Position numbers and translations under genes: made by a program. The notes beneath the pieces were generated by a model that was not told the origin of the DNA, did not search any database, and was given only the letters and a program-made list of their open reading frames with translations. Positions 5,000-9,992 of a DNA stretch of 39,283 nt are shown here, piece by piece. Position 1 is the first letter of the stretch. Each line of letters starts with the position of its first letter. This stretch comes from Escherichia phage Carena. Location: sequence record OR769031.1. One strand, 5' to 3'.

Positions 5000-6097
5000 A
5001 TGAACTACACCGACATTCAGGCACGTCTGGCAATCATCAAGTCTCTCCCGATTAGTGAACTGGACAAGCGCCAGCCTCTTTTGGTTGCACTTGCTGCTGA
5101 CATCGTGAACGGTGAGACGTGTGATGGTAACGACACCGATGGCTCGAACGGCTTGGAGTATCAGGACTGGTGGCACACATTGGGCGCACTGATGCGTGAT
5201 GCAGGTTTCCGCATGTTGGGTAATGGTCACTTCAGTGCGGCCTACTCGCATGAACTGTTACCGGGTCGAGTCATCAAGGTTGGCTTTAAGAAAGAGGATT
5301 CAGGCGCTGCATACACTGCATTCTGTAGGATGCACCAAGGCCGAGCGGGTATCCCTAACGTCTATCACGTAGCACGTCATGCAGGTTGCTATACGGTCGT
5401 ACTGGACCGCTTAAAAAGCTGTGACCGCGATAATTATGACCATGAGGTATACGCTGACCTCGCACGTTACTTTGTGGAGTCGGATTGCCATGACGCAAGC
5501 GACTTTGCACCGGGTGACTACGAGTTCATTGAGACCTGCCAGCTTATCCGCAAGTTCTTCAAAGGGATTGCATCTTTCGACATGCACAGCGGGAACATTA
5601 TGTTCGATGACAACGATGTCCCGTACATCACTGACCCGGTTAGTTTCTCCCATGACCGTGAACGCGAGGACGGTTTCCCATTAGACCCTGATGCACTGAT
5701 TGCCGAGGTCGAGGCGATAGCTAACGAGCGCATCATTGAACGGTGCCGCAATCGTAAGGCTAAGTGTGACCCTAATGGCACTTACTGGATGAACAAGAAA
5801 GCTAACATGAAACGCCGTAAGCGCAACCGTAAGTTACGTGCCAAGGTAGCTGAACGTGACCGCTTACACTTCATGGCAATCCGTAGGGAACGCGGTGTGA
5901 TTGAGCGTAACGAACGCCGTGCTGAGATGCTCATGGGGTCTGCGTGGCATGACTTCTGGCTGCGTAATGGTAACGCAACGGTACGCAAGATTGACCAAGT
6001 GAATGGCCTCAAGTGGCAACTAGGGGACCGCCTAGCAATCCAAGCGGGTCTACCTCTGAACATCGACAAGGTACTTGACTCTCAACTGCAAGGCTGA
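5000..6097 (+). CDS. 0.7: Ser/Thr protein kinase / host transcription shutoff protein (gp0.7), 365 aa
   Basis: Conserved blocks GFKMLGNGHFSAAYSH, VIKVGFKKEDSGAAYTAFCRM, SFDMHSGNIMF, PYITDPVSFS as in T7 gp0.7. Confidence 0.9.
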   Translation: MNYTDIQARLAIIKSLPISELDKRQPLLVALAADIVNGETCDGNDTDGSNGLEYQDWWHTLGALMRDAGFRMLGNGHFSAAYSHELLPGRVIKVGFKKEDSGAAYTAFCRMHQGRAGIPNVYHVARHAGCYTVVLDRLKSCDRDNYDHEVYADLARYFVESDCHDASDFAPGDYEFIETCQLIRKFFKGIASFDMHSGNIMFDDNDVPYITDPVSFSHDREREDGFPLDPDALIAEVEAIANERIIERCRNRKAKCDPNGTYWMNKKANMKRRKRNRKLRAKVAERDRLHFMAIRRERGVIERNERRAEMLMGSAWHDFWLRNGNATVRKIDQVNGLKWQLGDRLAIQAGLPLNIDKVLDSQLQG

Positions 6098-8829: not shown

Positions 8830-8852
8830 TAATACGACTCACTATTGGGAGA
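8830..8852 (+). promoter_or_regulatory. Phage RNAP promoter (phi1.1A-like)
   Basis: TAATACGACTCACTATTGGGAGA. Confidence 0.85.
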
Positions 8853-8911
8853 CCCTTGGGGTTTCCCCTACTTTAAGATAACTTTAAGTTTAACTTTAAG
8901 AGGCAACAACT

Positions 8912-9481
8912 ATGTTTACTTTCATTGCAACCACTACCGCTATCATCTCCACCACACTGGCTATCGTCTTCCTCAAGACTGGTAAGCAAGTCAATGACCA
9001 ACTCAATGCAGCCTATAAGGAACGTAAAGTTCTCAAAGAGAATCTGGCTGAAGGTCATAGTGAACTGGCATCCATGCGCAATTACATTGAGAGATACAAG
9101 CGAGAGACTGAGAGCGACATGAAGTTTGAAAGTGAGCGCACCAAGGCAATCATCACAGACCATGTGAACCGCAACAAGGAACTGAGAGAGCACATTAAGG
9201 AGTTAGAGAAGTTCCGCGATGGCATCCTGTTTAGTGACATCACGTCTATCAAGTTTACTGCTCACATCCCGGATGCTGGATGGAAGCGCACTGAGTTCAA
9301 GCTAGGCATAGGGTCTTGTGGCAAAGAGGTTACATGTTTGCACTGGAAAGAACAGTCGGACCGTTACCTGCTGACACAGACATGCACTGATGGTGAGCGC
9401 AAAGAGTTCACCTATTATAAGAAAGACGTAGCGGGTCGCATTGAGATTGCACGTAAGGTTGCAGACAATACGACTCACTAA
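8912..9481 (+). CDS. Hypothetical membrane-anchored protein in the gene 1.05 slot, 189 aa
   Basis: SD and phi1.1A upstream; N-terminal TM helix (FTFIATTTAIISTTLAIVFL), long charged coiled-coil, Cys-containing C-terminal domain; not present in T7. Confidence 0.8.
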   Translation: MFTFIATTTAIISTTLAIVFLKTGKQVNDQLNAAYKERKVLKENLAEGHSELASMRNYIERYKRETESDMKFESERTKAIITDHVNRNKELREHIKELEKFRDGILFSDITSIKFTAHIPDAGWKRTEFKLGIGSCGKEVTCLHWKEQSDRYLLTQTCTDGERKEFTYYKKDVAGRIEIARKVADNTTH

Positions 9482-9488
9482 TGGGAAA
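9466..9488 (+). promoter_or_regulatory. Phage RNAP promoter (phi1.1B-like)
   Basis: CAATACGACTCACTAATGGGAAA; overlaps the last four codons and stop of the upstream ORF. Confidence 0.8.
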
Positions 9489-9498
9489 CACTGAAAGT

Positions 9499-9538
9499 TA
9501 AACTCAAGGTCATCTACATGGTGGCCTTCATGATTAAC
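9499..9538 (+). promoter_or_regulatory. RNase III processing site (R1.1-like)
   Basis: AAACTCAAGGTCATCTACATGGTGGCCTTCATGATTAAC. Confidence 0.7.
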
Positions 9539-9570
9539 TGTCAACGATACTACAAAGAGGAAATAACATT

Positions 9571-9720: not shown

Positions 9721-9992
9721 TGGGTCGCTTATACAGTGGTAACTTAATGGCATACAAAGACGCTATCGAACGACTCAAAGAAGACCACGATGTGAGTGTG
9801 GTCGTTGAGACTTTCCGCTATGAGAACTATGCGAGGATGCGATGGGTATCCGGTGAGACTCTTCGAGTGGTCTTACGGAATGGCTTAGTGTTAACCTCTA
9901 AGTGTTTCGAACAGGACGATGAAGACGTTCGCTGCAATGCACAGACTGAATGGCTTCGTAAGGTACACAGTGACCTGAAGCACTGGAAGTAA
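9720..9992 (+). CDS. 1.2: gp1.2-like (host dGTPase inhibitor family), 90 aa
   Basis: Starts MGRLYSGNL and ends DLKHWK like T7 gp1.2 (MGRLYSGNL...LKDWK); TAATG overlap with gene 1.1 stop. Confidence 0.85.
   Translation: MGRLYSGNLMAYKDAIERLKEDHDVSVVVETFRYENYARMRWVSGETLRVVLRNGLVLTSKCFEQDDEDVRCNAQTEWLRKVHSDLKHWK

What the first reader, a model, noticed from the sequence alone, without database searches (positions are those of the whole stretch)
8912..9481. 189-aa membrane-anchored coiled-coil protein in the gene 1.05 slot
Directly downstream of the RNAP gene and promoter phi1.1A is a gene with one N-terminal TM helix, a long charged coiled-coil and a Cys-containing C-terminal domain. T7 has no gene here. 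This early/middle slot is where T7-like phages keep host-takeover and anti-defence factors. A membrane-tethered early protein could act in superinfection exclusion or against a membrane-associated host defence. Its last four codons and stop are embedded in the next promoter, suggesting long-standing integration.
Basis: partly seen in the sequence, partly recalled or inferred. Interest (0 to 1): 0.6.

Follow-up and report, generated by a model that had tools for sequence, protein, structure and literature searches.

The report
Membrane-anchored gene 1.05 protein, function unknown
The ORF is real and built as described, but it is the already catalogued "gene 1.05" protein of T3/BA14-like phages (Pfam PF25755): a conserved small beta-barrel on a membrane-anchored helical stalk, whose function nobody has tested.

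Summary
The window is Escherichia phage Carena, a Berlinvirus. ORF 8912-9481 (189 aa) is a real gene under purifying selection (dN/dS 0.05-0.17).
- an N-terminal hydrophobic anchor;
- an ~85-residue amphipathic helix;
- a six-stranded C-terminal beta domain.

Its last four codons and stop lie inside the next phage promoter, and T7 has an empty slot here.

It is not new. The C-terminal domain is Pfam PF25755 (T3 gene 1.05 protein, E 1.5e-29). Phage BA14 annotates the same long form as gene 1.05 ("fusion protein"), flanked by promoters phi1.05 and phi1.1. The exact protein is in GenBank as a hypothetical protein.

What I add:
- The family is phage-only.
- About half its members carry a membrane anchor. 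Charge distribution puts the barrel in the cytoplasm.
- Codons 6-107 are a swapped cassette between near-identical flanks.
- The gene sits next to the phage RNA polymerase gene on either side in T7-like phages.

Function is untested. My best guess is a non-essential early protein that holds a conserved intracellular partner at the inner membrane. Interest is modest.

The parts
8830..8852 (+). Phage RNA polymerase promoter phi1.05 (TAATACGACTCACTATTGGGAGA), with +1 at about 8847
   Evidence: One of 12 same-strand matches to the promoter core, 0.03 expected. The identical sequence is annotated as promoter phi1.05 in BA14.
8853..8897 (+). A+T-rich leader with three ACTTTAAG repeats. It occupies the position where T3 annotates its primary replication origin.
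   Evidence: Sequence. The T3 record places rep_origin between phi1.05 and the first codons of gene 1.05, and phiSG-JL2 does likewise. Origin function here is inferred from position only.
8898..8903 (+). Shine-Dalgarno sequence AAGAGG, 8 nt upstream of the ATG
   Evidence: Read directly from the sequence.
8912..9481 (+). Gene 1.05 coding sequence, 189 aa plus stop
   Evidence: ORF. Identical to GenBank WPJ67473.1 of phage Carena. PHROG 8103 E 1.8e-58. dN/dS 0.05-0.17 against WW1 and JSS1.
8915..8974 (+). Residues 2-21: N-terminal hydrophobic anchor, predicted N-out/C-in
   Evidence: Kyte-Doolittle 1.88. Hessa sum -0.16. Sixty long-form relatives have 0 K/R before the anchor and 184 K/R in the 15 residues after it.
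8927..9232 (+). Codons 6-107: exchangeable cassette (anchor plus helix), unrelated in DNA to the BA14 allele although the flanks are near-identical
   Evidence: Nucleotide identity to BA14 is 0.42-0.56 here and 0.88 in the C-terminal domain. 62% of columns vary here, against 7-8% in the flanks.
8975..9229 (+). Residues 22-106: long amphipathic helix (stalk), about 85 residues
   Evidence: AF2 helix 2-106 with block pLDDT 90-98. Periodicity of 3.6 residues. Helix length is held to 67-91 residues in 73 family members.
9239..9454 (+). Residues 110-181: PF25755 six-stranded small beta-barrel. Family-wide invariant residues are G132, C136, Q156, F166, G175 and R176.
   Evidence: Pfam E 1.5e-29, 102 bits against a cut-off of 27. 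Domain-only AF2 model pLDDT 93.3, pTM 0.78. Invariant columns.
9466..9488 (+). Phage promoter phi1.1 (CAATACGACTCACTAATGGGAAA), overlapping the last four codons and the stop
   Evidence: Annotated as phi1.1 at the same place in BA14.
9492..9543 (+). Hairpin in the phi1.1 transcript leader, at the position of the T3 RNase III site R1.1
   Evidence: MFE -18 kcal/mol, z = -3.05. T3 and phiSG-JL2 annotate R1.1 immediately after phi1.1. No Rfam family matched.

Best explanation
Shown. This is the long form of the T3/BA14 gene 1.05 protein. It is a phage-only accessory gene, expressed from its own consensus phage promoter, and lies next to the RNA polymerase gene.

Inferred from sequence and models. 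The protein is a bitopic inner-membrane protein with N-out/C-in topology. A roughly 12 nm amphipathic helical stalk, probably a coiled-coil oligomer, carries a conserved 75-residue beta-barrel into the cytoplasm.

Inferred mechanism. The barrel is the working part. It is a binding module for a conserved intracellular partner, most likely a host protein, as for nearly every characterised non-essential early T7-group protein. The interchangeable anchor-plus-stalk cassette only sets where and at what valency that partner is held. The result is recruitment or sequestration at the cytoplasmic face of the inner membrane, serving host takeover or counter-defence. The partner is unknown.
For: Identity:
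- PF25755 at 102 bits and PHROG 8103.
- BA14 annotates the same layout of gene and promoters.
- 493 phage records carry a homologue.

Real and constrained: dN/dS is 0.05-0.17 in the anchor, helix and barrel.

Architecture. Topology: 0 K/R before the anchor against 184 after it.

The barrel as the constant module:
- Of 179 family proteins, 73 have anchor plus long helix, 11 have anchor plus short linker, 18 have a long N-terminus without an anchor, and 71 are stand-alone.
- The different N-terminal forms occupy the same slot.
- The cassette is swapped between near-identical flanks.

Phage-only: 2 hits in 185,579 species genomes, both on phage-like contigs.

Accessory:
- T7 lacks the gene.
- Fewer records hold gene 1.05 (493) than hold the neighbouring RNA polymerase-ligase region (698).
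- A natural in-frame deletion variant, P0150, lacks the barrel.

Protein rather than nucleic-acid partner: the barrel is not consistently basic. Median net charge is +0.5 and 27% of members are acidic.
Against: - No partner, phenotype or localisation has been measured.
- The anchor in this phage is only marginally hydrophobic (Hessa sum about 0).
- Heptad occupancy is weak (11 of 24 a/d positions). The helix could therefore be a single amphipathic helix rather than a coiled coil.
- Linkage to the RNA polymerase gene in both orders, and to DNA polymerase and exonuclease genes in other phages, would fit a phage-directed role equally well.
- The prior in favour of a host target is general knowledge about T7 early genes, not a test.
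Confidence: 0.45

Rival explanations
1. It organises the phage's own DNA transactions at the membrane, in the manner of phi29 p16.7. The anchored stalk would tether the replication origin, the replisome or the phage RNA polymerase to the inner membrane. This could include transcription-driven genome entry.
For: - The gene lies between the two promoters that define the primary origin region in T3-type phages.
- It sits next to the RNA polymerase gene downstream in 15 loci and upstream in 14.
- In Sphingobium-type phage contigs it lies between DNA polymerase A and a 5'-3' exonuclease.
- The weak fold neighbours are Sm/SH3-like nucleic-acid binders: Hfq, WYL domains and ribosomal protein bL19.
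- p16.7 is an early integral membrane protein that anchors phi29 replication (PMC4974454).
Against: - T7 replicates and internalises its DNA without this gene.
- The barrel is not consistently basic.
- There is no profile similarity to Hfq (probability 0.07%).
- Half the family has no anchor.
- The position next to the polymerase gene changed sides perhaps only once, so it is weak statistical evidence.
Confidence: 0.2
2. It is a competition or exclusion factor acting against other phages, or against a membrane-associated abortive-infection system. The variable anchor-stalk cassette would set specificity.
For: - The N-terminal cassette exists as unrelated alleles exchanged between near-identical flanks.
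- The Kvp1 paper lists gene 1.05 among the regions of dissimilarity between Kvp1 and phage Berlin (PMC2579914).
- It is expressed early, and a membrane location recurs across the family.
Against: - Within one allele type the cassette is under purifying, not diversifying, selection (dN/dS 0.09-0.17).
- The predicted topology puts everything except one or two residues in the cytoplasm. Incoming DNA cannot be blocked in the periplasm from there.
- The conserved part is the barrel, not the membrane part.
- No experimental hint was found in the literature.
Confidence: 0.12
3. The protein matters little. The reading frame persists mainly because the DNA carries the origin, the promoters and an RNase III site.
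For: - The regulatory elements overlap or abut both ends of the gene.
- Third-position variation is suppressed in the last 24 codons before the promoter: 5 of 24 variable against 34 of 53 in codons 108-160, Fisher p = 0.0005.
- T7 dispenses with the gene.
Against: - dN/dS is 0.05-0.10 with dS of 0.4-0.8 across the helix and barrel, well away from the regulatory elements.
- The barrel is conserved down to about 30% identity in Pseudomonas, Ralstonia and Aeromonas phages, where the promoters and gene order differ.
- The fold is predicted with high confidence.
Confidence: 0.05

Closest known systems
T3 gene 1.05 protein (NP_523302; Pfam PF25755 Phage_T3_1_05)
   Same: The C-terminal barrel is homologous (43% identity over 79 residues). 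The slot is the same, between gene 1 and gene 1.1. It is flanked by promoters phi1.05 and phi1.1, and the stop codon lies inside phi1.1.
   Different: The T3 protein is 90 aa. It has the barrel plus a 17-residue N-terminal peptide, with no membrane anchor and no long helix. Its function is equally unknown.
BA14, 285P and Kvp1 gp1.05, and JSS1_006 (Berlinvirus long form, annotated as a fusion protein)
   Same: These are orthologues with the same three-part architecture, the same promoters and the same NTTH-stop tail inside phi1.1. JSS1_006 is 95% identical.
   Different: The BA14-type allele has an unrelated anchor-plus-helix cassette at codons 6-107, with nucleotide identity 0.42-0.56.
Phage phi29 p16.7
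   Same: It is an early, non-structural integral membrane phage protein that tethers a cytoplasmic activity to the membrane (PMC4974454). From my own knowledge, it has an N-terminal anchor, a coiled coil and a C-terminal binding domain.
   Different: There is no detectable sequence relationship. PDB profile searches found nothing. From my own knowledge, the p16.7 C-terminal domain is helical, not a beta-barrel. DNA binding by the 1.05 barrel is untested and is not suggested by its charge.
Sm/SH3-like small beta-barrels (Hfq, Gemin6/7, WYL domains of BrxR, CapW and DriD, SspB, ribosomal protein bL19)
   Different: Scores are at fold-class level only. The best Foldseek E-value against PDB is 0.23. 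hhalign against an Hfq profile gives probability 0.07%. The barrel has six strands and its own motif, FxLGxGPCGK...Q...DG..K.F.Y...GRIE.
E. coli ZipA (topological analogue, from my own knowledge)
   Same: It is a bitopic N-out/C-in inner-membrane protein with a long linker and a small C-terminal domain that captures a cytoplasmic partner.
   Different: There is no homology, and ZipA's linker is not a long helix. This is an analogy only and was not tested here.

Membership tests
Pfam PF25755 (T3 gene 1.05 protein family) | Match to the family HMM above the curated gathering score | tested here: met
   102.2 bits against a cut-off of 27, E 1.5e-29, residues 110-180 covering profile positions 2-72 of 73.
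Pfam PF25755 (T3 gene 1.05 protein family) | Family motif F-x-L-G-x-G-P-C-G-K ... Q ... D-G ... K-x-F-x-Y ... G-R-I-E, with invariant G, C, Q, F, G and R | tested here: met
   All six invariant residues are present (G132, C136, Q156, F166, G175, R176). The only departure is Ser for the near-invariant Pro at position 135.
Pfam PF25755 (T3 gene 1.05 protein family) | Position in the early/middle region next to the phage RNA polymerase gene | tested here: met
   The gene starts 90 bp after the gene 1 stop. The same holds in T3, BA14, KP32 and phiSG-JL2.
Long-form gene 1.05 (PHROG 8103 / 6440; fusion protein of BA14 and KP32) | Full-length profile match, plus N-terminal anchor, 67-91 residue helix and barrel | tested here: met
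   PHROG 8103 E 1.8e-58 over residues 15-189, and PHROG 6440 E 3.7e-43 over 5-179. Architecture census; model.
Sm/Hfq family | Sequence-profile similarity to Hfq (Sm1/Sm2 motifs) | tested here: not met
   hhalign of the domain profile against an Hfq alignment gives probability 0.07%.
Sm/Hfq family | Sm-like fold | tested here: inconclusive
phi29 p16.7-type membrane organiser of replication | Sequence or fold relationship to p16.7 | tested here: not met
   Profile searches of all PDB chains with the full-length and the domain alignments returned only coiled-coil noise, or one hit at E 1.4. From my own knowledge, p16.7 structures are in the PDB.
phi29 p16.7-type membrane organiser of replication | C-terminal domain binds DNA and replication proteins | not testable with these tools
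   Only indirect evidence is available. The barrel has median net charge +0.5 and 27% of members are acidic.
Holins and spanins | Profile match beyond the hydrophobic segment, and location in a lysis cassette | tested here: not met
   The only hit is a holin PHROG at E 0.021, confined to residues 3-45. The gene is in the early/middle region. The predicted topology is the opposite of an i-spanin.
Known defence and anti-defence protein families (PADLOC models) | Significant profile match | tested here: not met
   The only hit is LmuB at E 0.011, on the helical region 27-101. This is coiled-coil composition, not homology.

The most novel reading that the evidence does not exclude
The PF25755 barrel is a previously unrecognised, phage-specific module that couples the T7-group transcription or replication machinery to the inner membrane. 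The gene is encoded inside the primary origin region and is genetically linked to the RNA polymerase gene. Phages would tune the coupling by swapping anchor-stalk cassettes. This would be a Gram-negative counterpart of phi29 p16.7.
Probability: 0.15. Interest if true: 0.65.

Novelty: already known. Interest (0 to 1): 0.3.

Why it matters
Gene 1.05 is among the few genes of the classic phage T3 and its many relatives, including therapeutic candidates, that still have no function. It occurs in about 500 sequenced phages. If the barrel's partner were found, that would:
- add an effector to the well-studied T7-group early programme;
- explain why T7 can do without the gene;
- show whether membrane tethering is a general way these phages deploy early proteins.

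As it stands, the finding adds no new kind of element. Its value is as a well-defined candidate, with clear constructs to test: barrel alone, anchor-stalk swaps and a C136 mutant.

Tried and rejected
Searches that found nothing useful:
- Literature searches for gene 1.05 / gp1.05, phi1.05, PF25755, JSS1 genes, accessory-gene screens, motif strings and superinfection exclusion in Autographiviridae. They returned only genome tables and no functional data.
- NCBIfam and PADLOC gave only coiled-coil noise.
- PDB sequence-profile searches with the full-length and the domain alignments found nothing significant.
- Rfam found no match around the gene.
- A homologue search with the N-terminal half alone returned nothing, even though 99%-identical full-length proteins exist.
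- Pfam annotation of neighbours in non-T7-like contigs identified only DNA polymerase A and a 5'-3' exonuclease.

- Foldseek against AFDB50 was not available.
- The genome-collection scan needed a narrower alignment.

Ideas tested and dropped or left open:
- Hfq homology is rejected.
- The idea that short forms replace the anchor with an amphipathic membrane-binding peptide is inconclusive. T3 (hydrophobic moment 0.75), P0081 and P0099 qualify. Most others do not, and shuffles reach the T3 value in 71 of 1000 trials.
- The idea that the barrel is generally basic, and so binds nucleic acid, is not supported.
- Signal peptide or lipoprotein is rejected. The sequence has no charged n-region and no lipobox.

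Full report
WHAT THE WINDOW IS

The 189-aa protein is identical to GenBank WPJ67473.1, "hypothetical protein car1b_011" of Escherichia phage Carena. That genome is 39,283 bp, the same length as the window. The genome announcement places Carena in Berlinvirus (PMC10927641). The 6-kb region around the gene is 89-94% identical to Berlinvirus phages JSS1, BSP161, BA14, 285P and Kvp1.

CHECK OF THE OBSERVATION

- ORF 8912-9481 on the + strand is 189 codons. AAGAGG lies 8 nt upstream of the ATG.
- Residues 2-21 are hydrophobic. The Kyte-Doolittle maximum is 1.88 and the summed Hessa scale is -0.16 kcal/mol. This anchor is predicted but only moderately hydrophobic.
- AlphaFold2 with 37 homologues (mean pLDDT 89.6) gives one unbroken helix over residues 2-106 and six beta strands over 110-181.
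- The helix has 3.6-residue hydrophobic periodicity. Only 7 of 500 shuffles reach it. Most relatives show 3.5-3.6 despite unrelated sequences.
- The promoter core ATACGACTCACTA occurs 12 times, all on the + strand, against 0.03 expected.
- One promoter (8830-8852) lies 59 bp upstream of the gene. The other (9466-9488) contains codons 186-189 and the stop.
- T7 has nothing between phi1.1A and phi1.1B, which are 75 bp apart.
- The ORF is a real gene. Against WW1 and JSS1, synonymous divergence is 0.13-0.84 and dN/dS is at most 0.17 in the anchor, helix and C-terminal domain.

The only correction concerns a name. In the nomenclature of T3 and BA14 the upstream promoter is phi1.05 and the embedded one is phi1.1.

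WHAT IT IS

The C-terminal domain matches Pfam PF25755, "Enterobacteria phage T3 gene 1.05 protein", at 102 bits against a cut-off of 27. The whole protein matches PHROG 8103 and 6440, both of unknown function.

tblastn finds homologues in 493 phage records, mostly phages of Klebsiella, Escherichia, Salmonella, Pectobacterium and Yersinia. It marks promoter phi1.05 upstream and phi1.1 over the 3' end. KP32-type Klebsiella phages and the UniRef entry for JSS1_006 also call it a "fusion protein".

So the gene, its slot, its architecture and its promoter overlap are all on record. No paper in the searchable library assigns a function. It appears only in genome tables, and once in a list of regions that differ between Kvp1 and phage Berlin.

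ANATOMY OF THE FAMILY

An exhaustive profile search of 1.84 billion representative proteins found only 199 relatives at E below 0.001. A scan of one genome from each of 185,579 bacterial and archaeal species found two hits, both on phage-like contigs. The family is therefore phage-only.

I classified 179 family proteins:
- 73 have an N-terminal anchor plus a helix of 67-91 residues.
- 11 have an anchor plus a short linker.
- 18 have a long N-terminus without a clear anchor.
- 71 are the bare domain of 75-100 aa.
- 6 could not be classified because the motif search failed on them.

T3's 90-aa protein belongs to the bare type. Members with different N-terminal forms sit in the same slot, in the order RNA polymerase, 1.05, 1.1, ligase.

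The constant part is the barrel. Its motif is FxLGxGPCGK...Q...DG..K.F.Y...GRIE. Only G132, C136, Q156, F166, G175 and R176 are invariant.

Among 60 long forms there is not one Lys or Arg before the anchor, and there are 184 in the 15 residues after it. By the positive-inside rule the N-terminus faces out, and the stalk and barrel are cytoplasmic.

MOSAIC STRUCTURE

Between Carena and BA14 the DNA is nearly identical over three stretches: the end of gene 1, phi1.05, and the first five codons of 1.05. It is then unrelated over codons 6-107 (nucleotide identity 0.42-0.56, 62% of columns variable). From codon 108 to beyond phi1.1 it is again 88% identical.

The anchor-plus-stalk is thus an exchangeable cassette with sharp borders. 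Within one allele type it is under purifying selection (dN/dS 0.09-0.17), so its sequence matters.

THE BARREL

A domain-only model built on 64 diverse sequences is confident (pLDDT 93.3, pTM 0.78).
- Foldseek against the PDB has no hit below E = 0.23.
- A PDB sequence-profile search gives E = 1.4 at best.
- hhalign against Hfq gives probability 0.07%.
- In the viral structure library, every significant hit is an uncharacterised protein of Autographiviridae infecting enterobacteria, Pseudomonas, Ralstonia, Aeromonas or Delftia.

The barrel is not consistently basic. Its median net charge is +0.5 and 27% of members are acidic. That does not favour general nucleic-acid binding.

GENOMIC LINKAGE

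- In 15 enterobacterial loci the gene directly follows the RNA polymerase gene.
- In 14 loci it directly precedes it. These include cultured Pseudomonas phages G11, Waldo5 and Torve.
- In seven loci from other phage types there is no T7-type polymerase within the 4-5 kb flanks that were fetched.
- In two Sphingobium-type contigs the gene lies near replication genes. One has DNA polymerase A upstream. The other has a 5'-3' exonuclease downstream.

The T3 and phiSG-JL2 records place the primary replication origin between phi1.05 and the first codons of 1.05. Carena has an A+T-rich stretch with three ACTTTAAG repeats at that position.

HOW IT MOST LIKELY WORKS

Shown: identity, selection, architecture, phage-only distribution, dispensability in T7, and modularity.

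Inferred: membrane insertion with a cytoplasmic head, and oligomerisation through the helix.

My preferred reading (confidence 0.45) is as follows. The barrel binds a conserved intracellular partner, and the cassette holds that partner at the inner membrane. The partner is most likely a host protein, because nearly all characterised non-essential early proteins of the T7 group act that way. That prior is established knowledge, not a test made here.

The main rival (0.2) is a phi29 p16.7-like organiser of phage replication or transcription at the membrane (PMC4974454). The origin location and the polymerase linkage favour it. T7's lack of the gene and the barrel's neutral charge count against it.

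An exclusion or competition role (0.12) fits the cassette swapping. It is hard to reconcile with a cytoplasmic head and with purifying selection.

A "DNA matters, protein does not" reading (0.05) is contradicted by the selection data.

VERDICT

The element is already known as an uncharacterised family. It is a reasonable candidate for experiments but not a surprise.

Noticed in passing
window 9392-9463 (codons 161-184 of gene 1.05): Synonymous variation is suppressed just upstream of promoter phi1.1. Across Carena, BA14, JSS1 and WW1, 5 of 24 third positions vary, against 34 of 53 in codons 108-160 (Fisher p = 0.0005). This suggests an extra DNA or RNA constraint, such as part of the origin or an upstream promoter element, or recent homogenisation by recombination.
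   Followed up: partly
window 8853-8897: The A+T-rich leader has three ACTTTAAG repeats between phi1.05 and the gene. It sits where the T3 and phiSG-JL2 records annotate the primary origin of replication. Origin function here is inferred from position only.
   Followed up: partly
window 9492-9543: A stable hairpin (-18 kcal/mol, z = -3.05) follows phi1.1 directly. This is the position of the T3 RNase III site R1.1. Its 5' arm is nearly invariant among four Berlinviruses, and no Rfam family matches.
   Followed up: partly
loci L015, L021, L024-L026, L028, L033-L037, L040-L042 versus L001-L007, L012-L014, L016-L020: The PF25755 gene sits next to the phage RNA polymerase gene in both orders. It is downstream in enterobacterial T7-likes and immediately upstream in Pseudomonas T7-likes and related metagenomic contigs.
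   Followed up: partly
protein P0150 (110 aa, from the representative search): This is a natural in-frame deletion variant. It keeps the anchor, the helix and the promoter-encoded tail GRIEIARKVADNTTH but lacks almost the whole barrel. The promoter-bearing 3' end is retained even when the domain is lost.
   Followed up: no
locus L043 (T7 5800-6010) compared with window 8830-9560: T7 appears to carry the same elements in permuted order. T7 has phi1.1A, then an R1.1-like hairpin, then phi1.1B, then A+T-rich DNA, then gene 1.1. Carena has phi1.05, then A+T-rich DNA, then gene 1.05, then phi1.1, then the hairpin, then gene 1.1.
   Followed up: no
window, whole: There are twelve phage promoters with core ATACGACTCACTA, all on the + strand: 3103, 8832, 9468, 9992, 11227, 12276 (one mismatch), 16059, 21302, 23909, 24902, 29326 and 37168. 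Positions +1 to +6 vary between GGGAGA-like and weaker forms such as GCGAGA at 9992.
   Followed up: no
loci L039 (same Sphingobium contig as L023) and L031: In Sphingobium-type phage contigs the stand-alone PF25755 gene lies in a replication module. L039 has a family A DNA polymerase upstream, and L031 has a 5'-3' exonuclease downstream. No T7-type RNA polymerase lies within the fetched flanks.
   Followed up: partly
proteins P0081-P0140 (for example P0101 in loci L044 and L045): A third architecture occupies the same slot. It has a short N-terminal peptide beginning MFNF or MFNS, a coiled coil without a hydrophobic anchor, the barrel, and a basic C-terminal tail. An amphipathic membrane-binding role for the N-terminal peptide was not supported statistically.
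   Followed up: partly
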